A DNA stretch of 64,000 nucleotides from a virus (IMGVR_UViG_3300027759_003166), one strand, 5' to 3'; positions 15,774 to 24,204 are shown, counted from the first letter of the stretch. Numbers and translations are program-made. Notes: generated from the sequence alone by a model not told the origin.

Positions 15774-16316
15774 TTATAAACGAGCGTCTATAATGTTCCA
15801 ATTGATAATTTTCCAATGATTATTTAGATAACCTTTTTTATCGGCTTGGTAATCCAATGACCAAGCATGTTCCCAAGCATCAATTAAAACAATAATATCT
15901 TTCTTTATAGAATGATTGGGAATTATTTTTATATCACCATTGCTTGATAGATAGCACCAGCCACTTCCTTGAATGGACATAAACGATTTGGTAAATTCTT
16001 CTTTGAAGTTATCAAAAGATTTAAAATGTTGATCAATAAACTCTTTGGATGCACCAATTGGTGTATTTTCTTCATCTGGAATCTGTAGTTGTGGAAAGTA
16101 TATACTATGTAAGTAAGCACCTGCTTCATTAAAGTCTAGATCACCTTCGCCGCTGTTATAGCGATTAACATAGGTTCTGTATAGTTTGCCATAATGATAA
16201 TCTATAGCATCTTCACTTAACACAGGTTCTAATGCATCTCGGGCATAGGATAATTTCACTTGTTCAAGTGTTTTGATCTCTTTGCCTTCTACTACATATT
16301 TTATAAAATTAAACAT
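15774..16316 (-). CDS. sod: Fe/Mn superoxide dismutase
   Basis: LEP..S....YHY, AYLH, GSGW, DAWEHA metal-ligand motifs. Confidence 0.85.
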   Translation of the reverse strand: MFNFIKYVVEGKEIKTLEQVKLSYARDALEPVLSEDAIDYHYGKLYRTYVNRYNSGEGDLDFNEAGAYLHSIYFPQLQIPDEENTPIGASKEFIDQHFKSFDNFKEEFTKSFMSIQGSGWCYLSSNGDIKIIPNHSIKKDIIVLIDAWEHAWSLDYQADKKGYLNNHWKIINWNIIDARL

Positions 16317-16906
16317 TATTTCTTTTTACCTGCTTTCATATTAGCGGCCCAATGTGCTAATTGTGCTGCTCGTCCTGAATGACTTTTGGCAAACTTTCTC
16401 AAACTGCTAATACTAGCATGTTTAGGAATACCGTGCCTTGCACTATCACCTTTATCCTCGGGATGACGTCCGTCAGCAAAATTCTCTGCTACATCCTGCT
16501 GACCTTCCACAGTAAGCCTGTCTAATGCTATTGGATTTAATACAACATTCGGTTTCAAGCCTTTGGTGTTAGCATAGGCCACATACACTTGATCTGTGGG
16601 TTCTATAACAAAACTCACACAATGTTTACCGGGCCAGTCTGGTTTGCCCACACTAAACCAAATGCCTATCACAGGAATAAATGGATGTTCATCTGTGCTC
16701 AACCGACCATATTCCCGTTCGCCTGTGGCGTCACGCCGAGGTTTTAGTCCTCCACTTTTCTTAATTGCTTCTAGCCTATTGGTACAATGATAAACCCTTT
16801 GCCCCACTATGTCTTGTCCAGGAAATAGATTCGTACCAGGAACATTCTTAGGTGGTCTAACTCCCTGGTAGTTGGTAAAGTTTTCAACTAGTTCGTTGAT
16901 ACGCAT
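16316..16906 (-). CDS. putative internal head protein: ADP-ribosyltransferase-like domain + basic C-terminal module
   Basis: N-terminus MRINELVE; VYHCT...GGL.P and GIWFS motifs; QQDVAE linker. Confidence 0.5.
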   Translation of the reverse strand: MRINELVENFTNYQGVRPPKNVPGTNLFPGQDIVGQRVYHCTNRLEAIKKSGGLKPRRDATGEREYGRLSTDEHPFIPVIGIWFSVGKPDWPGKHCVSFVIEPTDQVYVAYANTKGLKPNVVLNPIALDRLTVEGQQDVAENFADGRHPEDKGDSARHGIPKHASISSLRKFAKSHSGRAAQLAHWAANMKAGKKK

Positions 16907-17689
16907 TTAGCAATTCCATTTACGTAATGCCAATGCCTTGCGTGTAGGTTCACCATTGGGCTTTTTCATAGGACCATCAACTCCACCCATTCTAGCACAG
17001 AATGATTTACGGCGTTTGGCGGATTTACTGCCAGCTTTTAATTTACTGGGTTTAGTGGTAACTGCCGTTTGTAGTTTGCTACCAGGGTGCTCTCTACGAT
17101 AACTAGCAACACCTTTGGCATTTAGTCCGCCAGACTTGCTTTTGCCGGCCTTACGATGCCACGCAGCAGATTCATTTAATTCATCTTCTAAAAACGTATC
17201 AGCAAACTTTTCGCATAGTGCTCTAATGTCTGAGTTGTTTGTTTCTTGTAGAGTAAATTCTCTTTCTTCGTGTTCGTCGTCACCTTGGCTTGGATCCATA
17301 TAACCGCAATATACTTTACGTATGATAGAATTATTGATTAGATCGGTACAACTATCTCCGTGCCTTTCTTGTGCAGTTTCATCACTAAATTCACTGCAAG
17401 GACTCAGCGTAGTAATAAGAATACTGCCTTCTGGAATGTCACCATATTTTCTATCATAGGCTTCCATGGCTGCTTTCTCTGCATGAACATGTAAATCGCC
17501 TTGCATATAATTCAATCCTAAAACTAAATTATTGTCAGGATCTAATACAGCAGCAGCAACCATGCCGTAACGTTCGCTATCCCTTTTCTGGCCTTCAATA
17601 ACCAGTTTGCAGAGTTTAACCAAGATACCGTCCAACTTGGTTAGATTGCGTATCTCGTAGTCAGTTTGGTCAAACTCTGTAAATCTCAT
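16907..17689 (-). CDS. zinc-dependent nucleotide deaminase domain fused to basic C-terminal module
   Basis: HAE...TLSPC..(insert)..C deaminase signature; ELNE junction; N-terminus MRFTEF. Confidence 0.7.
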   Translation of the reverse strand: MRFTEFDQTDYEIRNLTKLDGILVKLCKLVIEGQKRDSERYGMVAAAVLDPDNNLVLGLNYMQGDLHVHAEKAAMEAYDRKYGDIPEGSILITTLSPCSEFSDETAQERHGDSCTDLINNSIIRKVYCGYMDPSQGDDEHEEREFTLQETNNSDIRALCEKFADTFLEDELNESAAWHRKAGKSKSGGLNAKGVASYRREHPGSKLQTAVTTKPSKLKAGSKSAKRRKSFCARMGGVDGPMKKPNGEPTRKALALRKWNC

Positions 17690-17738
17690 TTCTTTTTCAC
17701 CTTAGGCTGTCTTGCTTTATATAAGGCCGCTGTGGCCA

Positions 17739-18725
17739 TTACTTTTTTTTTTCTGGGGTCTTATTTTTAAATTGGTGATACTTATTTGGATCAGCATTTT
17801 GGAAGTTATCAACCCAAGCATCTAAATCCATAGTAGGTTCCAATTGTCTCTCTACCATTTGCTGTAGTGATTCAAAGTATGGATCACCTTCCGCCACACC
17901 TTGCTTGCGACTTTGGATAACTGTTCCACTTTGTTTTAAATATTTTATTACTTGTTTTCTAATTTGATTTGGATCAGTTAAACCGCCATCTAAACAATTA
18001 TCAACTATTTCAATAGCCAATTGTTGATCCATATCATCAATTAAATTAAATTCTTTTATAAAATGATTTCCCATCTTAATTGCTTCTGGACTATACATTC
18101 CTTCATGATCACCCTCCTCCATACCTTGCTCTTCTTTTCTTTTACCAAATGTAGCATGTACAAGTTGATCTAATTTTGCATGGAAATTAGTTTCAGCATC
18201 TTTGCTAAGTCCTGCATCACCTTCCGCCACACCTTGCTGCTCACCGTTGATACTTTGTAGCACACTATTCAAGTAGTCTGCGGCTTTAGTAATTTTACTT
18301 TGTTGCCAAGCATCAAGTCCTTCTTGTTCGCTATAACGTTGTACCATGTCTAATAATGATTGAGCATTTTTAGCAATGCTCATTAGTTCGCTACTGGCCA
18401 TTTGTATTTCGTGATCAGGATGATCTCTGTCTTCCATAAAAGGTTTTTTATGTTTTTCTTTGCGTGGAATAGTTTTGCTTTTATCTTTGTGAGCACCGGC
18501 ACCTGCCGTTTTGGCATTCTTAGCAACAAAGTTTCTTGGAGTACTTGCTGGAACAGTTTTCTTATCTGCTTCTTGTGCAATTAGATTATTACCACGTTTG
18601 CGTGTACCGCCTATGGGCATACTAACACTGGCTACACTACCTGAACTGGTGCCGCCTCCACTAGCATTTTCTAATACATAACGAGTTACCTCGCCTTGTG
18701 ATAATTTTTTAAATTCGTTGTTCAT
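17739..18725 (-). CDS. modular putative internal head protein with QGVAEG linkers (C-terminus possibly frameshifted)
   Basis: two QGVAEG and one QGMEEG linker; A10 tract at the stop. Confidence 0.65.
   Translation of the reverse strand: MNNEFKKLSQGEVTRYVLENASGGGTSSGSVASVSMPIGGTRKRGNNLIAQEADKKTVPASTPRNFVAKNAKTAGAGAHKDKSKTIPRKEKHKKPFMEDRDHPDHEIQMASSELMSIAKNAQSLLDMVQRYSEQEGLDAWQQSKITKAADYLNSVLQSINGEQQGVAEGDAGLSKDAETNFHAKLDQLVHATFGKRKEEQGMEEGDHEGMYSPEAIKMGNHFIKEFNLIDDMDQQLAIEIVDNCLDGGLTDPNQIRKQVIKYLKQSGTVIQSRKQGVAEGDPYFESLQQMVERQLEPTMDLDAWVDNFQNADPNKYHQFKNKTPEKKK
17883..17905 (-). repeat. QGVAEG linker DNA repeat copy
   Basis: ATCACCTTCCGCCACACCTTGCT, identical to 18216-18238. Confidence 0.85.
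18216..18238 (-). repeat. QGVAEG linker DNA repeat copy
   Basis: 23-bp exact match to 17883-17905; related copies at 18108-18130, 19895-19910, 20066-20081. Confidence 0.85.
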
Positions 18726-19063
18726 TTTGTTTTCATCCAATTTGATACAGGGCTTACTGTATGTGTTCCTTTAGGTTCAAGACTACCTCGTTGAACAATT
18801 ACTTTATTTTTAAAACCCATCTTCTTAGCAGCATTGACAATCATTTCTTCATCGACATCTGAATATGCCCATGCTGCCGGAACATCTTTAGCAGGTCCTT
18901 CTGTAGGTGCATCATGATCTGGCATACCTGCAGACATTATACCTAATCTATAAAAATCGTAGTATTGATCAGCTCCGTGAAATTGTCGCCCGTGTGGTAG
19001 TGTACGTTGTGCCTGTTTATGCAGACCTTTCTTACGTTCTATGATAAACTCAGTTGCTCTCAT
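18722..19063 (-). CDS. putative internal head protein (paralogue A)
   Basis: N-terminus MRATEFIIE; ends VSPVSNWMK. Confidence 0.65.
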   Translation of the reverse strand: MRATEFIIERKKGLHKQAQRTLPHGRQFHGADQYYDFYRLGIMSAGMPDHDAPTEGPAKDVPAAWAYSDVDEEMIVNAAKKMGFKNKVIVQRGSLEPKGTHTVSPVSNWMKTK

Positions 19064-19430
19064 TTTTCATCCAATTTGCTACAGGACTAACGATATTAGT
19101 ATCATCGGGTTCTTTGCTCTTGCTACGCTTGGTTAATTCTTTACTATCTGTAGGAATAGTTGCCATTGCTTGTAATACCATCATATGTTCAATGTCTGTG
19201 TAAGGAAATGCTACATTGTATTTTTCCACAAAACTTGAACTATCCATATCTACTGCTTTTTTATTTGATCCATCTGCCATAGCAGTTGCCATCCAAATTC
19301 TATTCAGATGATAGGTGCGATCATACCCGCCAACATCTCGCATCCTGGTAGCACCTTGGTTGGCATTGTCCATATGATGGTGCATTTTGCCGCCCGGTGT
19401 TGCCTCTGAAATGAATTCTTTTGCTCTCAT
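19050..19430 (-). CDS. putative internal head protein (paralogue B)
   Basis: N-terminus MRAKEFISE (ATG 19430); ends VSPVANWMK. Confidence 0.65.
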   Translation of the reverse strand: MRAKEFISEATPGGKMHHHMDNANQGATRMRDVGGYDRTYHLNRIWMATAMADGSNKKAVDMDSSSFVEKYNVAFPYTDIEHMMVLQAMATIPTDSKELTKRSKSKEPDDTNIVSPVANWMKNESN

Positions 19431-19434
19431 AGTA

Positions 19435-22400
19435 TTATTTATTACTTTTGGATATTGCTTCATTAACAATAATCTTATTGATGAGAGCATCCATAATGTT
19501 TTCAATATCTTCACTTACTGGAATACAAATGTCTTTACCGTTTTTAGTACCAGCATAACGTTTACCTTTCCAGCAGGCCTTACCGTCAACCCCTTTGATC
19601 TTTTCTTCAATGGGTTTGTCATTGTGTTGAACGCTATCACCGCCAACTAAATCTCCAGCCTGAGCAGGTTTGTTTTTCTTAGGTCCAGTATTCTTCCATT
19701 GTCCAGCAGGTCCAAGTTTGTTCTTTTTACTACCTGCAAAGTTACTTGCTGGCATCATCTTTTCGGCAACTTTCTCATCCTTCTTAGGTTCTGGTTTAGG
19801 GATACTACTTGGAGTACGAGCAAGACTTGCGTCGCTCTTAGCACGTTGTTTCTGTTCAGCATTCCATAAACGTTGAGCAGCACTCATACGAGCCTCCGCC
19901 ACACCTTGCTTTGGTTCTGGTAAGCGTAACTTTTTACGCATCTCAGGGCTTGTATCTTTTAAACGTTTCTGTTGTTCTTTATCTTGTTTTGCTTTTGCTT
20001 CTGGACGATTTCTACGCTGTTCTTCACGATCACCGCTTGGTGTACGATTATCCATCTCTGCCAAGCCTTCCGCCACACCTTCGGCCATTTTAACGTGATG
20101 TCTATCCAACTCTTGTTTCAATGCTGCTAATTTGTTTGGAGCACGAGCAATAGCATTACGGATCTCCCCGGCAACGTTCTTTGGAATCTTACTTAATACA
20201 TCATTAACAATCTGATCAACCTGTGCATTCTGTTGTCCTACTGCTGTACTTTTAGGTGGCTTAATAGCTGGCTCATCCTGCTCATCACCTGATGCTTCGA
20301 GATCCATTAAGTATCTTTCGTATTCTGCTTTATTCTGCATCCAACGACGAGCATTTCTTGTCAGTTGTGGAGCATTGATTTGTTCGCCTAACTTGGCCAA
20401 TATTGGAGGTAGATTATTAGAGATGTTGCCAAATGATCTCTTCATTTCTAATTCGCCGTCTGCTTCTTCTCCACGTAAGAAGTCACGTAAATCTACGGTT
20501 CTACGAGTATTGTATTTGCATAGGTCGTGTAGTTCATTGTGTAGTCTACCTATGTACATATTTTGCACCCAACGGCCACCAACCCCTGCTGCTACCATTC
20601 TAAAGCCACGACCTAGTTCGCCATGATTCTCCATATACTTCTTAGCCTGGAATTTCATTGTTTCATAGACATTGGTAATAGGTTCTCCGATGTCGTTGAT
20701 AATGGATCGTAGTGTGCTGTCAATACTGGTACCTTCTACTAGGGCATTTAATATTCTTTGTTCTGCTATAGGAGCAGGTTCTGGTTGTGGCACAGGTGCC
20801 TTTGGTTGTTGTATTCCCATACCTTCCCTTGTTAAATCCATTAGGTGTTTAATCCAATTAACACCTAATTTTTGTACATCAAATCCTTGGCTCCAAACGG
20901 CTAATTGCTGTTGTTCAGTGGCGTTAGGATCTTTTAATATATTTCGTAGTTTAGTAAAACTCATACCAGTACCACGTGGTGTTATTTCTAAACTTACTTT
21001 AACATGTTCATAGCCTGGAAATTTATTAACACCCTTCATTAATGCCTGTGGCATAGTAAGACCTGCTTGATCTTCACCAACCATAATAATAACATTATCA
21101 TAGCGCGGCGGCTTGCCTGGTAGTGGATTAATTAATTCGTGCTTGATCTTTTGTAGTAATGATCCACCTGCTTCATTCACGGTACTAATATTCTTAGCAT
21201 ATTCTGGATATAGTTTGTGCCAAGTTTGTACTTTAACTGCCGGTGGTATTGGATCATCTTTACCCTGTGCATTGCCAATAAACAAATATGGATCCCCACC
21301 TACTGCTGCGGCTTTCTTTAATGTGTAATCAAATAATTGCTCATGACCAATATGTCCAACAAAACTACCAATAGCAACTACCGCTGTCTTAGCATCTCCT
21401 CTTGGACGTTCTGTTCTTGCATTTACCTTAGCAGCATTCTTAGCAGTGATAACATCACGTTGTTCCTGACTGGTAACTTTAATAGGACCTAGGCGACTAT
21501 TGATAACAATACCTTCGTAGTCTTTGCCCAACATATCTTTGCCAATGATGTTAGGGTCATTGATAATTGCTTTCTCTAATGCTGCGGCCACAGGTTCCAA
21601 TGCTGCCTTAACCTGACGTCGGGCTTCTAACTTGTTGCTGGCTAACATGGCTTTTAGTTCATCGATGTTCTCAACAGGTGGAACTAATGCTGTAACATCT
21701 AATGCTTCATTTTGTGTTAGACTATTATCAATAAACATAACACTGCCTGATTGTCCTACGCTGGTTAGCTCTTGAACAATTTTGTTTGAGTTAGGTAAAT
21801 CATCACCTGTGGTAGCATCTGTGATACGGAATGGAACCAATGCAAGTTTAACACCTGCTGGTAATTTGTCGTAGTGTATACCTACAAACTTTAGTTTACC
21901 TTCTGGAGTTTCTGTGGCAAATGGTAGATACAATACTTCACAGGTAACTTGTTTATTGACTAAAAATCCAGGTCCTAACTTGCTATCAACTAACTTAACA
22001 GCGTTCATCATTTCCGTAAATAGTTCATCAAATAGTTGAGCACGACCTAATACTTCTGGATCAGTAGTACCTTTCTTTTGATGATATGCTACAAAGCCTG
22101 GTTCGTATCTAGGTTCTGTTCTACTGGTGCCCATGAAAGGCTTACCTTCAGAATTCTTACCAAATCTGCCACCAAATCCGTCTACTTTGACGTTTAAAGG
22201 AATGTTTTGCAGTTTAAAATTGCCGTTTCCGTCGTGAATTTCGTCTAATAAATCTAACAAGTCAGCAGGCTTAAGATCGTGTAAGTGTGGCATACCTTTT
22301 CGGAATTGTGCCTTTACTTGTGCTTCTTCTTTTAATGGTTTAACAGCCTTGTTTTGAAATGCAGCAGCATAAGTAGTAGCCATTTCAATTGCTTGTTTTC

Positions 22401-23544
22401 TTAAACTAGCAGCATTGGCTAACTTCATATTTTCCAACATCCAATCTATGGCAGCAAATTTAATATCGCGGTCTCTTGCCGGATCATTTTTGGTGATCAT
22501 TTGACTACCTGGTTCAAAACATATACTAAAGAAACGTTGTGCTATTTCTTCTTTCTTTTGTTCGTTGAGATATTTGGCAATCAGTTGTACTGTACCGACA
22601 AAACTATTTTTAAGTTCTTGATCATTGCCTTTGGGTTTTCTACCAAAGAAGATTTCAAATTGTTGACCAAGATTTTGTATGTATTGTCTTGCACTAGGTT
22701 CAAGCAATTGCATTACAGGAATGCCATCCTTTTCCATAGGTTGCCCAGTAGCAGGATCCATGTAAGGAACATATTTCTGACTTACACCACCACCGCTTGG
22801 ACCGCTAACAGCAAAACTATAATCACTATCAGTTACAGGTGCATCAGATATCTTTGTACTTTTCTTTAATACACGAGCAACATATTTGGTACTGGCCTGA
22901 GAATAGGGTAATGCACGATCTAAAAATTTGTGGAATACACCTTTAATGTTTTGAGATATGTCATCCCAAGAACTGCTATGACTATATGATTGCCACTCTG
23001 TGGGTAATCCTGTTTCGGCTTCATGTGCTCCGTATTCAAAGTCAATTTGAATCTTAACAGGTAAATCTTTTAATTTGATCTCCCATAGGCTAACCCATTG
23101 ACTATTACCTGGAGTAAATCCCAACAACATGGCGTTGCTGAACATTTTACCTGTGTTATTTTGTAAGAATTGTCTAATTGTTTCAGCATGTTTGTCAGTT
23201 GCTTGTGTATCAATATCGCCTACCTTGGGTTTGACTCGGACAAATTCTTCATCAGATATTTTCTTATCCATGAATTGTAAAGTACTGCCGCTTAGAAACT
23301 TTTGAGTCTCTACAGAATTCTCATGCCAAAGCGGTTCTTTGAATTGCTGAGTAAATGCATCATTAATTGAATGTAGTGTTTGACTTACTACATCTTGTAC
23401 ATAACTACGGTCATGAACATGTAGATCTAATTCTTGTGCTTGATGATCACCTGGTACCCCTTGCCACCCTGGACTTTGGCTAGATACATTGCCACCTTCG
23501 GATAATGCTAGTTTAGGATTTCTAAATAGTTCAGATAAGTTCAC
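19435..23544 (-). CDS. 1369-aa multidomain protein: Pol-beta-like NTase + KxDG ligase-like + HIGH cytidylyltransferase-like domains + small modules
   Basis: SGS...GDID (23209-23220), VKVDG (22177-22188)...EGIV, GHIGH (21343-21354); GVAE linkers. Confidence 0.6.
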   Translation of the reverse strand: MNLSELFRNPKLALSEGGNVSSQSPGWQGVPGDHQAQELDLHVHDRSYVQDVVSQTLHSINDAFTQQFKEPLWHENSVETQKFLSGSTLQFMDKKISDEEFVRVKPKVGDIDTQATDKHAETIRQFLQNNTGKMFSNAMLLGFTPGNSQWVSLWEIKLKDLPVKIQIDFEYGAHEAETGLPTEWQSYSHSSSWDDISQNIKGVFHKFLDRALPYSQASTKYVARVLKKSTKISDAPVTDSDYSFAVSGPSGGGVSQKYVPYMDPATGQPMEKDGIPVMQLLEPSARQYIQNLGQQFEIFFGRKPKGNDQELKNSFVGTVQLIAKYLNEQKKEEIAQRFFSICFEPGSQMITKNDPARDRDIKFAAIDWMLENMKLANAASLRKQAIEMATTYAAAFQNKAVKPLKEEAQVKAQFRKGMPHLHDLKPADLLDLLDEIHDGNGNFKLQNIPLNVKVDGFGGRFGKNSEGKPFMGTSRTEPRYEPGFVAYHQKKGTTDPEVLGRAQLFDELFTEMMNAVKLVDSKLGPGFLVNKQVTCEVLYLPFATETPEGKLKFVGIHYDKLPAGVKLALVPFRITDATTGDDLPNSNKIVQELTSVGQSGSVMFIDNSLTQNEALDVTALVPPVENIDELKAMLASNKLEARRQVKAALEPVAAALEKAIINDPNIIGKDMLGKDYEGIVINSRLGPIKVTSQEQRDVITAKNAAKVNARTERPRGDAKTAVVAIGSFVGHIGHEQLFDYTLKKAAAVGGDPYLFIGNAQGKDDPIPPAVKVQTWHKLYPEYAKNISTVNEAGGSLLQKIKHELINPLPGKPPRYDNVIIMVGEDQAGLTMPQALMKGVNKFPGYEHVKVSLEITPRGTGMSFTKLRNILKDPNATEQQQLAVWSQGFDVQKLGVNWIKHLMDLTREGMGIQQPKAPVPQPEPAPIAEQRILNALVEGTSIDSTLRSIINDIGEPITNVYETMKFQAKKYMENHGELGRGFRMVAAGVGGRWVQNMYIGRLHNELHDLCKYNTRRTVDLRDFLRGEEADGELEMKRSFGNISNNLPPILAKLGEQINAPQLTRNARRWMQNKAEYERYLMDLEASGDEQDEPAIKPPKSTAVGQQNAQVDQIVNDVLSKIPKNVAGEIRNAIARAPNKLAALKQELDRHHVKMAEGVAEGLAEMDNRTPSGDREEQRRNRPEAKAKQDKEQQKRLKDTSPEMRKKLRLPEPKQGVAEARMSAAQRLWNAEQKQRAKSDASLARTPSSIPKPEPKKDEKVAEKMMPASNFAGSKKNKLGPAGQWKNTGPKKNKPAQAGDLVGGDSVQHNDKPIEEKIKGVDGKACWKGKRYAGTKNGKDICIPVSEDIENIMDALINKIIVNEAISKSNK

Positions 23545-23548
23545 AATA

Positions 23549-23908
23549 TTATCCTAACTTATATTTGTCTTTTTTAATATCTTCACGATAGTGATCATGA
23601 AGTCTATGGCACATATCATCTCTCATTTCTTTTGAAAACTCAGTGCCTAACTTGCCTTTTAATTCGTTATCGTGATAGTATTCTTTACAACCTTTAATTA
23701 CCATAGGCATATACATTTCTAATACTTGCTCAGGTGTACATTCATCTAAACTCTTTAGTTTACGAGCAATAGGATAGAAGTAATCTTTGTGTAGTTTATC
23801 GTGATCAATGATGTACCAAAATAATTCGTCGGCACGTTTATCATCGTCGGTGTCTTTGCCACGTTGGCTTATTTGTATAGGCTGATTAAAGAATTCTGTG
23901 AGTTTCAT
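23549..23908 (-). CDS. putative internal head protein
   Basis: N-terminus MKLTEFF; ATAAATA motif 7 nt upstream of ATG. Confidence 0.6.
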   Translation of the reverse strand: MKLTEFFNQPIQISQRGKDTDDDKRADELFWYIIDHDKLHKDYFYPIARKLKSLDECTPEQVLEMYMPMVIKGCKEYYHDNELKGKLGTEFSKEMRDDMCHRLHDHYREDIKKDKYKLG

Positions 23909-23922
23909 AATATGGTATTTAT

Positions 23923-24204
23923 TTAAGTTTGTTCTTCCAGATAATAACTACACCCTGGTATACCGTGTTGGCTATATCTCAAATTCCTCTCCATTGGATA
24001 AGTTCTGCACCCATCAGGCCTTGTTTCGTATATTTTGCATCGGCGAAATTCTTCATCAAAATGCTCGCACCATCGTGTAGTATACTCAACATTACCTGGT
24101 TTATAAACGCGAACTTTACAACATCCTGTATTACATCCGCCAAATGGATCACAAAAACCTTTGACCACAGGATTAATCCAAATAATCTCATTCATTATAC
24201 CCAC
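23923..24204 (-). CDS. YkgJ/CxxCxxCC-family Cys-cluster protein
   Basis: C....C..GCC...C......CKIYETRPDGCRTYP. Confidence 0.75.
   Translation of the reverse strand: MGIMNEIIWINPVVKGFCDPFGGCNTGCCKVRVYKPGNVEYTTRWCEHFDEEFRRCKIYETRPDGCRTYPMERNLRYSQHGIPGCSYYLEEQT

What the first reader, a model, noticed from the sequence alone, without database searches (positions are those of the whole stretch)
19435..23544. Three nucleotidyl-transfer chemistries in one 1369-aa putative ejected protein
Seen: Pol-beta-type GS...DxD (SGS...GDID), covalent-ligase-type KxDG with downstream EGIV, and a HIGH-motif Rossmann domain (GHIGH, VGEDQ, SFTKLR), followed by GVAE-linked small modules. Known: these motifs define the NTase, RNA/DNA ligase-capping and cytidylyl/adenylyltransferase superfamilies. 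Inference: a multi-enzyme unit for RNA end repair (countering tRNA/rRNA-cleaving defences), NAD or nucleotide-signal synthesis, or protein AMPylation, delivered with the DNA.
Basis: partly seen in the sequence, partly recalled or inferred. Interest (0 to 1): 0.7.

Follow-up and report, generated by a model that had tools for sequence, protein, structure and literature searches.

The report
Head-loaded phage polyprotein, three nucleotidyltransferases
A giant T4-like lake phage encodes one 1369-residue protein that strings a polymerase-beta-type enzyme, an RNA-ligase-type enzyme and an NMNAT-like adenylyltransferase behind a T4-style head-loading tag, so it is probably packed into the capsid, cut into separate enzymes and injected with the DNA, most likely to mend broken nucleic-acid ends, though its substrate is untested.

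Summary
High-confidence models and fold searches confirm three unrelated nucleotidyl-transfer folds. Their catalytic motifs are invariant in diverged relatives.

- D1 (17-406): Pol-beta superfamily, but not RlaP.
- D2 (407-700): ATP-dependent ligase fold, nearest to Rnl5 and Rnl2 RNA ligases, with no OB domain.
- D3 (701-928): HxGH nucleotidyltransferase, nearest to NMNAT, in the family of the cyanophage "cytidyltransferase".

After these come a helical module of unknown function and basic peptides.

"Delivered with the DNA" is supported indirectly:
- The N-terminus is a T4-like capsid-targeting leader ending in LxE|GGN.
- Six adjacent genes share this kind of leader.
- Conserved hydrophobic-x-Glu sites fall in the only disordered segments of the models.
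- A 90%-identical relative's contig encodes a gp21-type prohead protease.
- A leader-bearing D1 homologue was detected by mass spectrometry in Campylobacter phage IBB_35 virions.

A ligase-like enzyme recurs next to, or fused with, an HxGH transferase in four phage lineages, so the two probably work as one unit. The substrate is unknown: RNA repair, DNA repair or NAD-related.

This scan has reported the same protein family before on other genomes.

The parts
23497..23544 (-). Residues 1-16: N-terminal leader (M)NLSELFRNPKLALSE, read as a T4-like capsid-targeting propeptide ending in L-x-E before the invariant GGN
   Evidence: In 121 relatives P1 is Glu in 121/121, P3 is L/I/V in 120/121 and P1'-P3' is GGN. 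The model is disordered here. Leaderless homologues start exactly at M-GGN. The T4 CTS and the gp21 L/I-x-E rule are described in PMC9026906.
22327..23496 (-). Residues 17-406: D1, a Pol-beta-superfamily nucleotidyltransferase (G86-S87, D110-x-D112, D168/E170) with a C-terminal helical bundle
   Evidence: phrog_19290 at E 5e-30. Catalytic residues are invariant in 71 sequences. pLDDT is above 90. VIA-align matches: TUT7 Z 8.2, TUT1 7.7, TdT 7.5, Pol beta 7.5, GLD-2/Trf4 7.4. No Pfam hit, including RlaP.
21445..22326 (-). Residues 407-700: D2, the nucleotidyltransferase domain of an ATP-dependent polynucleotide ligase (motif I K453-x-DG, III E536, IIIa F553/Y558, IV E677-G, V K689), with no OB domain
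   Evidence: Foldseek: Rnl3 8uce at E 1e-4, REL1, NgrRnl. VIA-align: NgrRnl Z 11.4, REL1 10.3, T4 Rnl2 9.9, DNA ligases 8.8-9.5. Motif residues are invariant in 58 sequences. The conserved site [LVI]-x-E406|A precedes it, in a segment with pLDDT below 50.
20761..21444 (-). Residues 701-928: D3, an HxGH ('HIGH') Rossmann-type nucleotidyltransferase (H731-x-G-H734, S862-x-T-x-x-R867), joined to D2 by a helix with no conserved cleavage site
   Evidence: phrog_3041 cytidyltransferase at E 5e-11. The profile hits the RibF HxGH region at E 1.5e-4. Foldseek finds FAD synthetase, PPAT and NMNAT. VIA-align: NMNAT/NaMNAT Z 11.8-12.0, PPAT 11.4. The D3 profile hits the cyanophage S-H9-1 cytidyltransferase at E 3e-22.
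20068..20760 (-). Residues 929-1159: D4, an all-helical module of unknown function, bounded by V-A-E928 and G-V-A-E1159; it is mobile among cargo proteins and often follows an HxGH transferase
   Evidence: pLDDT is above 90, with disordered borders at 926-936 and 1157-1160. No sequence or fold assignment was found. It occurs in 90 of 265 collected proteins in many contexts.
19510..20067 (-). Residues 1160-1345: lysine/arginine-rich peptides (pI about 10) separated by GLAE and QGVAE junctions, ending at the conserved site V-S-E1345
   Evidence: Fragment pI and charge. G[VIML][AESQ]E occurs 141 times in the tails of relatives and 12 times in their cores, about 28-fold more per residue. E1345 is conserved in 105/119.
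19435..19509 (-). Residues 1346-1369 plus the stop codon: conserved acidic/hydrophobic C-terminal peptide, a possible C-terminal propeptide as in T4 Alt
   Evidence: This tail is conserved in relatives whose middle parts differ. C-terminal processing of Alt by gp21 is described in PMC9026906.
16316..19430 (-). Downstream genes with the same kind of leader (MRAKEFISE.., MRATEFIIE.., MRFTEF.., MRINELVE..), including a cytidine-deaminase+DUF6321 protein
   Evidence: The leader pattern occurs 7 times in the whole window on both strands, 6 of them in consecutive genes at 16316-23908.
23549..23908 (-). Upstream 119-aa gene with the leader MKLTEFF..

Best explanation
The gene encodes a cargo polyprotein of a T4-like giant phage.

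Proposed steps (all inferred):
1. [quoted passage not shown]
2. The gp21-type prohead protease then cuts after Glu at hydrophobic-x-Glu sites (E16, E406, E928, E1159/1163, E1217, E1345).
3. This releases four kinds of product: (i) a Pol-beta-type nucleotidyltransferase of about 44 kDa; (ii) a two-domain enzyme of about 57 kDa in which an RNA-ligase-type adenylyltransferase domain is rigidly joined to an NMNAT-like HxGH adenylyltransferase; (iii) a helical protein of about 26 kDa; and (iv) small basic peptides that probably sit on the packed DNA.
4. These products are ejected with the genome and act in the first moments of infection.

Most likely chemistry (inferred): D1 adds one or a few nucleotides to a 3'-OH end, and D2 seals 3'-OH/5'-phosphate breaks through a Lys453-AMP intermediate. 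Together they would be an end-repair pair for RNA (for example tRNA cut by host nucleases) or for nicked nucleic acid. D3 performs an ATP-dependent adenylyl transfer to a phosphorylated small molecule or end. That substrate is unknown, and NMN is the leading candidate.

Shown here: the three folds, the conservation of their catalytic residues, the leader and site conservation, and the recurrence of the ligase/HxGH pair.
For: Folds:
- Models have pLDDT 93.6 and 89.8.
- D2 matches RNA and DNA ligases.
- D3 matches NMNAT, PPAT and FAD synthetase.
- D1 matches TUTases, TdT and Pol beta.
- Catalytic residues are invariant.

Packaging:
- The leader and L/I-x-E|GGN are conserved in 121/121 relatives.
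- Stand-alone D1 proteins either carry such a leader or begin exactly at M-GGN.
- Six consecutive genes carry the leader, against one elsewhere in 64 kb.
- In 67 related loci the pattern occurs 163 times on the gene strand and 3 times on the other strand.
- The only model segments with pLDDT below 50 (1-9, 402-405, 926-936, 1157-1160) coincide with the conserved h-x-E sites.
- A Peptidase_S77 (gp21) gene lies in the 221-kb contig of a 90%-identical relative.
- The D1 homologue of Campylobacter phage IBB_35 (gene 1-56, leader MKLSELMFILE|GGN, profile E 4e-71) was found in virions by ESI-MS/MS at 17% coverage (PMC3322345).
- Cytidyltransferases are repeatedly seen in cyanophage virion proteomes (PMC10665884).
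- C-terminal modules in relatives include lysozyme, LysM and an HD_4 hydrolase, as expected of ejected cargo.

Functional linkage:
- Xanthomonas phage BUDD encodes D1, D2 and an HxGH transferase as adjacent separate genes.
- Vibrio phage Va1 has D1 near a KxDG+CTP_transf_like fusion and a CCA-adding enzyme.
- In cyanophage S-H9-1 a KxDG/EGYV protein abuts the D3-family cytidyltransferase.
Against: - There is no experimental datum for this protein or this phage.
- The window's own genome is not held, so its protease gene was not seen.
- D1 is not a detectable RlaP member.
- No kinase or phosphatase 'healing' domain is present in this polyprotein, so ends bearing 2',3'-cyclic phosphate could not be repaired by it alone.
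- D2 motif V has one Lys (K-V-T) instead of K-x-K.
- The structural preference for RNA over DNA ligases is only 1-2 Z units.
- D3 fits no obvious step of RNA repair.
- BUDD and Va1 homologues lack leaders, so the enzymes also work unpackaged.
- Conserved h-x-E triplets also occur inside the folded domains (E435, E511, E545, E824).
Confidence: 0.55

Rival explanations
1. DNA reading. The packaged D1 (Pol X-like) and D2 (ligase) fill and seal nicks or gaps in the phage's own injected, 7-deazaguanine-modified genome, or D2 is the phage's only DNA-joining enzyme. The target would be DNA, not RNA.
For: D1 aligns over 172-195 residues with Pol beta, TdT and Pol lambda (Z 7.1-7.5). D2 also matches DNA ligases (Z 8.8-9.5). 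No PF01068, PF01653, PF09414 or RtcB ligase was found in three 200-229 kb contigs of relatives. The gene lies between the DNA polymerase and a deazaguanine operon.
Against: D2 has no OB domain, and its top matches are RNA ligases. Those contigs are only 55-65% complete, so absences are weak. Va1 places D1 beside a CCA-adding enzyme. A replication ligase would not need a capsid leader.
Confidence: 0.2
2. NAD or cofactor reading. The key product is D3 acting as an NMN (or FMN/phosphopantetheine) adenylyltransferase. Injected, it would rebuild NAD+ against NAD-depleting defences or feed injected NAD-using enzymes, and D2 would be coupled to it through the AMP donor.
For: The five best structural matches of D3 are NMNAT/NaMNAT (Z 11.8-12.0), and NadR scores 10.2. 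The cyanophage literature calls this family an NMNAT homologue found in virions. Viral D3-like proteins are fused to AAA_33/Zeta-type kinases, as in NadR. A Nampt gene lies in one relative's contig.
Against: The Z scores are tied with PPAT, RfaE-like enzymes and FAD synthetase. No NMN source is delivered with it. This reading does not explain the conserved pairing with a ligase and a Pol-beta enzyme. Nampt was found in only 1 of 3 contigs.
Confidence: 0.15
3. Not packaged. The protein is an ordinary cytoplasmic multi-enzyme, and the N-terminal resemblance to a capsid-targeting sequence and the h-x-E sites are incidental.
For: BUDD, Va1 and several metagenomic homologues have no leader. Conserved h-x-E also occurs inside domains. 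There are no proteomics for this phage.
Against: The leader is conserved in 121/121 relatives with an invariant junction. Leader genes are clustered. The sites coincide with the disordered linkers. The IBB_35 homologue was detected in virions.
Confidence: 0.1
4. Protein AMPylation or nucleotide-signal synthesis: D1 modifies host proteins or makes or destroys a signalling nucleotide.
For: Pol-beta NTases in polyvalent phage proteins have been predicted to modify proteins (PMC5512222).
Against: The nearest folds of D1 are polynucleotide 3'-end transferases and Pol X, not Fic, SelO, cGAS or antibiotic NTases, within the 50 rows shown. D1 is linked to a ligase in several lineages.
Confidence: 0.05

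Closest known systems
Phage T4 internal proteins IPI-III and the packaged ADP-ribosyltransferase Alt (capsid-targeting sequence, gp21 processing, injection; PMC9026906, PMC3012670)
   Same: Both have a short N-terminal leader with a hydrophobic/Glu pattern ending in L/I-x-E. Both have cleavage sites after Glu. The genes are clustered and the cargo bodies are unrelated to each other. A C-terminal propeptide is likely, as in Alt. Basic DNA-associated fragments are present.
   Different: Here a single precursor of 1369 residues carries several enzymes plus basic peptides, with internal sites between the modules. The leader is 16 residues, not 10. The cargo is nucleotidyltransferases rather than an ART or restriction inhibitors. 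Neither cleavage nor injection has been shown.
Polyvalent proteins of phages and conjugative elements (Iyer, Burroughs, Anand, de Souza, Aravind 2017, PMC5512222)
   Same: Several unrelated effector domains sit in one polypeptide that is thought to travel with the invading DNA. Domain content is variable and shuffled, and includes Pol-beta NTases and peptidoglycan hydrolases.
   Different: Delivery here is by a T4-type leader and the prohead protease, not by MuF/portal fusion or an in-built zincin peptidase. In the passages I read, that survey reports that the 2H domains of polyvalent proteins are never associated with RNA ligases, and it predicts that their Pol-beta NTases act on proteins.
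RNA-repair pairs of RlaP (PF10127) with RNA ligases; T4 Rnl2, Naegleria NgrRnl (Rnl5), T. brucei REL1
   Same: A Pol-beta NTase is linked to an ATP-dependent RNA-ligase-type domain. The best structural matches of D2 are NgrRnl, REL1 and T4 Rnl2.
   Different: D1 gives no PF10127 match, and hhalign against T4 NrdC.11 gives 0.5% probability. D2 lacks the N- or C-terminal signature domains of Rnl5 and Rnl2 and carries an HxGH transferase instead. No kinase or phosphatase is present.
NMN/NaMN adenylyltransferases (NadM, NadD, NadR) and the 'cytidyltransferase' of T4-like cyanophages
   Same: They share the fold, the HxGH motif and an ISxTxxR-like motif. The D3 profile matches the S-H9-1 cytidyltransferase at E 3e-22. 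That gene class has been reported in cyanophage virion proteomes.
   Different: The substrate is unknown. D3 is fused to a ligase domain. Pfam PF01467 does not reach threshold on this protein.

Membership tests
Pol-beta nucleotidyltransferase superfamily (D1) | hG[GS] motif, DxD on the next strand, and a third carboxylate on a later strand | tested here: met
   G86-S87, D110/D112 and D168/E170 are invariant in 71 sequences and lie on H86-91, E110-116 and E161-172 of the model.
Pol-beta nucleotidyltransferase superfamily (D1) | Palm fold shared with solved members | tested here: met
   TUT7 Z 8.2 (104 residues, rmsd 3.4); Pol beta Z 7.5 (172 residues, rmsd 4.1); TdT Z 7.5; GLD-2 and Trf4 Z 7.4. 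These Z values are middling.
RlaP (PF10127) | Match to the family model or to a known member | tested here: not met
   None of 71 D1 sequences hits PF10127 at E<=0.1. hhalign of the D1 profile against T4 NrdC.11 gives probability 0.5%, E 0.11.
Covalent nucleotidyltransferases (ATP-dependent ligases and capping enzymes) (D2) | Motifs I (KxDG), III, IIIa, IV (EG) and V on the conserved strands | tested here: met
   K453/D455/G456, E536, F553/Y558, E677/G678 and K689 are invariant in 58 sequences and lie on strands 450-453, 531-539, 567-576, 678-683 and 686-691. Motif V has a single Lys.
Covalent nucleotidyltransferases (ATP-dependent ligases and capping enzymes) (D2) | Adenylyltransferase-domain fold | tested here: met
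   NgrRnl Z 11.4 (186 residues, rmsd 3.3); REL1 Z 10.3; T4 Rnl2 Z 9.9. Foldseek probability 1.00.
Covalent nucleotidyltransferases (ATP-dependent ligases and capping enzymes) (D2) | Formation of a lysyl-AMP intermediate | not testable with these tools
   Needs labelling with alpha-32P-ATP.
DNA ligases and capping enzymes | OB domain following the nucleotidyltransferase domain | tested here: not met
   A helix leads from D2 straight into the Rossmann-type D3. No Pfam PF01068 hit.
HxGH ('HIGH') nucleotidyltransferases, cytidylyltransferase-like (D3) | HxGH after strand 1 and an ISxTxxR-type motif | tested here: met
   H731/G733/H734 and R867 are invariant in 70 sequences. The profile aligns to the HxGH region of RibF.
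HxGH ('HIGH') nucleotidyltransferases, cytidylyltransferase-like (D3) | Fold | tested here: met
   NMNAT 1f9a Z 11.9 (152 residues, rmsd 3.1); NaMNAT 2h29 Z 11.8; PPAT Z 11.4. Foldseek probability 1.00.
HxGH ('HIGH') nucleotidyltransferases, cytidylyltransferase-like (D3) | Pfam PF01467 above its cut-off | tested here: not met
   There is no PF01467 hit on this protein; FAD_syn scores 13.5 bits, below its cut-off. Support from related families: phrog_3041 at 5e-11 and the cyanophage cytidyltransferase at 3e-22.
NMN adenylyltransferase | NMN or NaMN as substrate | not testable with these tools
   The structural ranking is tied within 1 Z unit with PPAT and RfaE-like enzymes.
T4-type capsid-targeted, gp21-processed head cargo | N-terminal leader ending in L/I-x-E | tested here: met
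T4-type capsid-targeted, gp21-processed head cargo | gp21-type prohead protease in the genome | tested here: inconclusive
   PF03420 was found in contigs of relatives (E 2.5e-26 and 9.6e-27). The window's own genome is not held.
T4-type capsid-targeted, gp21-processed head cargo | Presence in virions and actual cleavage | not testable with these tools
   The only data are from relatives: IBB_35 gene 1-56 by MS and cyanophage cytidyltransferases.

The most novel reading that the evidence does not exclude
The ligase-like domain and the NMNAT-like domain form one previously unrecognised two-step machine. It is conserved in at least four phage lineages as a fusion or as a gene pair. Its chemistry would not be plain ligation: possibilities are ligation driven through an NAD-like donor that it regenerates itself, or adenylylation/capping of nucleic-acid 5' ends. 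Together with a new Pol-beta enzyme it is pre-loaded into capsids, so that it acts before any phage gene is expressed and serves as a first-minute counter-defence.
Probability: 0.2. Interest if true: 0.85.

Novelty: new variant of a known kind. Interest (0 to 1): 0.65.

Why it matters
The known head-packaged effectors of T4-type phages are small inhibitors and an ADP-ribosyltransferase. If this reading holds, giant aquatic T4 relatives ship whole enzyme kits as protease-cut polyproteins, and that cargo includes nucleic-acid end-joining and end-extending enzymes. Repair or counter-defence could then start before any phage gene is expressed.

The family is large: more than 700 fused relatives were found in metagenomes. 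It would also explain why 'cytidyltransferases' keep turning up in cyanophage virion proteomes.

The leader and cleavage grammar gives a direct way to recognise injected cargo in uncultured phages. The recurring ligase/HxGH-transferase pair is a concrete and cheap biochemical target.

Tried and rejected
- Sequence searches of the whole protein against Pfam and PDB gave nothing significant.
- Profile searches of D1, D2 and D4 against PDB sequences gave only chance-level rows.
- D4 stayed unassigned after a PDB profile search, VIA-align, Atlas features and an Atlas shape search. It was never modelled alone, so a known fold is not excluded.
- I considered filing D1 as RlaP and rejected this as membership. 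The functional analogy remains possible.
- Megablast against cultured phages found no near relative.
- The window's own contig could not be fetched by exact protein look-up, and no whole genome is held. The protease and other genes were therefore sought in contigs of relatives only.
- My D2 and D3 profiles do not reach the Va1 484-aa protein or the BUDD HxGH protein. Those are analogous architectures shown by motifs and Pfam, not proven orthologues.
- No complex prediction was run.

Full report
**Observation.** The plus strand of 19435-23544 is full of stops. The minus strand is one open frame of 1369 codons. It starts with GTG at 23544, four bases after the stop of the upstream gene, with AGGA about 9 nt upstream. 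Close homologues start with ATG at the same place. The next gene really starts at ATG 19430, so the two genes do not overlap.

**Family and module map.** A word-indexed search found more than 724 proteins of comparable length. An exhaustive HMMER search of residues 1-1200 found 1074 representatives. Local comparison shows four features:
- a core (residues 1-936) present in nearly all of them;
- an optional module (937-1156);
- a highly variable stretch;
- a conserved C-terminal tail.

Across 265 collected proteins the modules occur as D1-D2-D3(-D4), D1-D2, D2-D3, D3-D4, and D1, D3 or D4 alone. They are therefore separable units. Contigs carrying the family are 170-340 kb long. The window itself has a T4-type family B DNA polymerase, tail fibres, a ClpA-like ATPase and a 7-deazaguanine operon.

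**Folds.** AlphaFold2 models were built on alignments of 111 and 101 relatives. Mean pLDDT was 93.6 for residues 1-700 and 89.8 for residues 700-1160.
- D2 (407-700): Foldseek returns only polynucleotide ligases. The best is Rnl3 8uce at E 1e-4, and REL1 and NgrRnl reach probability 1.00. VIA-align gives NgrRnl Z 11.4 (186 residues, rmsd 3.3), REL1 10.3, T4 Rnl2 9.9 and DNA ligases 8.8-9.5.
- D3 (701-928): Foldseek gives FAD synthetase, PPAT and NMNAT. In VIA-align the top five are NMN/NaMN adenylyltransferases at Z 11.8-12.0, tied within one unit with PPAT and an RfaE-like protein.
- D1 (17-406): this domain was hidden in the Foldseek list but appears in the wide search. TUT7 scores Z 8.2, TUT1 7.7, TdT and Pol beta 7.5, GLD-2 and Trf4 7.4. 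These Z values are middling, but the motifs sit on the right elements.

The catalytic residues are invariant in 58-71 diverged sequences: G86, S87, D110, D112, D168, E170; K453, D455, G456, E536, E677, G678, K689; H731, G733, H734, R867. D2 is followed by a helix and then D3, with no OB domain.

D1 is not RlaP. None of 71 members hits PF10127, and hhalign against T4 NrdC.11, the T4 RlaP named in the 2025 preprint, gives 0.5% probability.

D4 is helical and unassigned.

**Is it head cargo?** T4 loads IPI-III and Alt through a 10-residue N-terminal capsid-targeting sequence. Its protease gp21 cuts after Glu in L/I-x-E, and Alt is also trimmed at its C-terminus (PMC9026906; PMC3012670). The evidence here is as follows.
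1. The protein starts (M)NLSELFRNPKLALSE|GGN. In 121 relatives P1 is Glu in all, P3 is L/I/V in 120, and GGN follows.
2. Stand-alone D1 proteins either have such a leader or begin exactly at M-GGN. Leaderless examples are Xanthomonas phage BUDD, Vibrio phage Va1 and several metagenomic proteins. This marks G17 as the mature N-terminus.
3. The leader pattern occurs seven times in the 64-kb window on both strands. Six of these are the starts of consecutive genes at 16316-23908. In 67 related loci it occurs 163 times on the gene strand and 3 times on the other strand; this is a crude control.
4. Conserved h-x-E sites lie at E406 (121/124, then Ala), E928 (85/106) and E1345 (105/119). G-V-A-E-type junctions are about 28-fold enriched per residue in the variable tails.
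5. The only segments with pLDDT below 50 are 1-9, 402-405, 926-936 and 1157-1160, which are these same sites. No conserved site lies at the D2/D3 border.
6. A Peptidase_S77 gene is present in the 221-kb contig whose homologue is 90% identical, and in a second relative.
7. The IBB_35 homologue of D1 (gene 1-56, leader MKLSELMFILE|GGN, profile E 4e-71) is listed among virion proteins identified by ESI-MS/MS, at 17% coverage (PMC3322345 supplement).
8. A cyanophage study notes that cytidyltransferases are frequently detected in virion proteomes (PMC10665884). The D3 profile matches the S-H9-1 cytidyltransferase at E 3e-22.

The predicted products are about 44 kDa (D1), 57 kDa (D2-D3) and 26 kDa (D4), two basic peptides of pI about 10, and a 24-residue C-terminal peptide. 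None of this has been shown for this phage.

**Functional linkage.**
- In BUDD, D1, an unknown gene, D2 and an HxGH transferase are adjacent and leaderless.
- In Va1, D1 lies near a CCA-adding enzyme. It also lies near a 484-aa protein with KxDG and EGVIL in its N-terminal half and a Pfam CTP_transf_like domain in its C-terminal half.
- In cyanophage S-H9-1, a 410-aa protein with KxDG and EGYVA...KAVK ends four bases inside the D3-family gene.

A ligase-like enzyme therefore recurs next to, or fused with, an HxGH transferase in four lineages. D1 accompanies it in three of them: this family, BUDD and Va1. The enzymes also work unpackaged. Atlas shape matches show D3-like domains fused in viral proteins to NTP_transf_2, AAA_33/Zeta kinases and PAP2 phosphatases. 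Those fusions fit either end-healing or NadR-like chemistry.

Other cargo modules in relatives are lysozyme, LysM, PG_binding, HD_4, amidoligase and DUF6321. This resembles the 'polyvalent protein' theme (PMC5512222).

No PF01068, PF01653, PF09414, RtcB or RlaP gene was found in three long contigs of relatives. Nampt was found in one. Those contigs are only 55-65% complete, so the absences are weak evidence.

**Reading.**
- Three active nucleotidyltransferases: about 0.9.
- Head loading and processing: about 0.7.
- Nucleic-acid end repair: about 0.4.
- RNA as the specific target: about 0.3.

Jumbo-phage surveys link Pol-beta NTases with RNA ligases in tRNA repair (PMC7824862). RlaP adds one or two nucleotides to damaged RNA (preprint 10.64898/2025.12.29.696909). 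D1 is only an analogue of RlaP. The role of D3 is the main gap.

**Earlier work in this scan.** Follow-ups on other genomes reached the same general reading. I re-derived it here. The points I did not take from those summaries are:
- leaderless forms that start at M-GGN;
- the coincidence of the sites with the disordered segments;
- the IBB_35 table entry;
- the negative RlaP tests;
- the four-lineage ligase/HxGH pairing.

Noticed in passing
window 17883-17906, 18216-18239, 19888-19911, 20062-20085 (minus strand): The Q/E-G-V-A-E junctions in two different genes use the same DNA. The 11-mer GGTGTGGCGGA occurs only at these four in-frame sites in the whole window. A fifth copy, at 18108-18131, is diverged (QGMEEG). 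This may be a recombination handle for shuffling cargo modules, or simply recent duplication.
   Followed up: partly
window 15774-16316 (minus strand): A 180-aa Fe/Mn superoxide-dismutase homologue (Sod_Fe_C 1e-22, Sod_Fe_N 2.5e-11) sits at the end of the leader-gene cluster. Its N-terminus is MFNFIKYVVE|G. Around the usual metal-binding His positions it reads DYHYGKLYRTYV, so it may not bind metal.
   Followed up: no
window 16907-17689 (minus strand): A leader-bearing 260-aa protein combines a cytidine/dCMP-deaminase domain (PF00383, 5e-9) with a C-terminal DUF6321 (1e-21). DUF6321 also ends some relatives of the polyprotein. It may be a shared cargo tail.
   Followed up: partly
proteins P0173, P0174, P0180, P0197, P0204, P0211, P0218, P0229, P0233: A recurrent smaller cargo architecture: leader MLLRQLFE.., followed directly by an HxGH transferase (GWGRGMGHKGH or GRFNPPHMGH), then the helical D4 module. 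D4 may therefore be a partner of the HxGH enzyme.
   Followed up: no
L003 (Vibrio phage Va1) 7472-8926; L074 (Synechococcus phage S-H9-1) 3727-4959: Unannotated proteins with ligase motifs (KxDG, EG-h-h, K-x-K) lie next to, or are fused with, cytidyltransferase-like domains in cultured phages. In S-H9-1 a small neighbouring gene is labelled ribonucleotide reductase, probably wrongly.
   Followed up: partly
window 23923-24204 (minus strand): A 93-aa Cys-rich protein (CxxCxxCC family, PF03692, 3e-5) lies between the tail-fibre gene and the leader-gene cluster.
   Followed up: no
relatives P0081 and P0154: Some polyproteins of this family carry an HD_4 (RelA/SpoT-hydrolase-type) domain. Others carry a second NTP_transf_2 plus Amidoligase_2 and DUF6934 after the core. 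Alarmone hydrolysis may be another injected activity.
   Followed up: no
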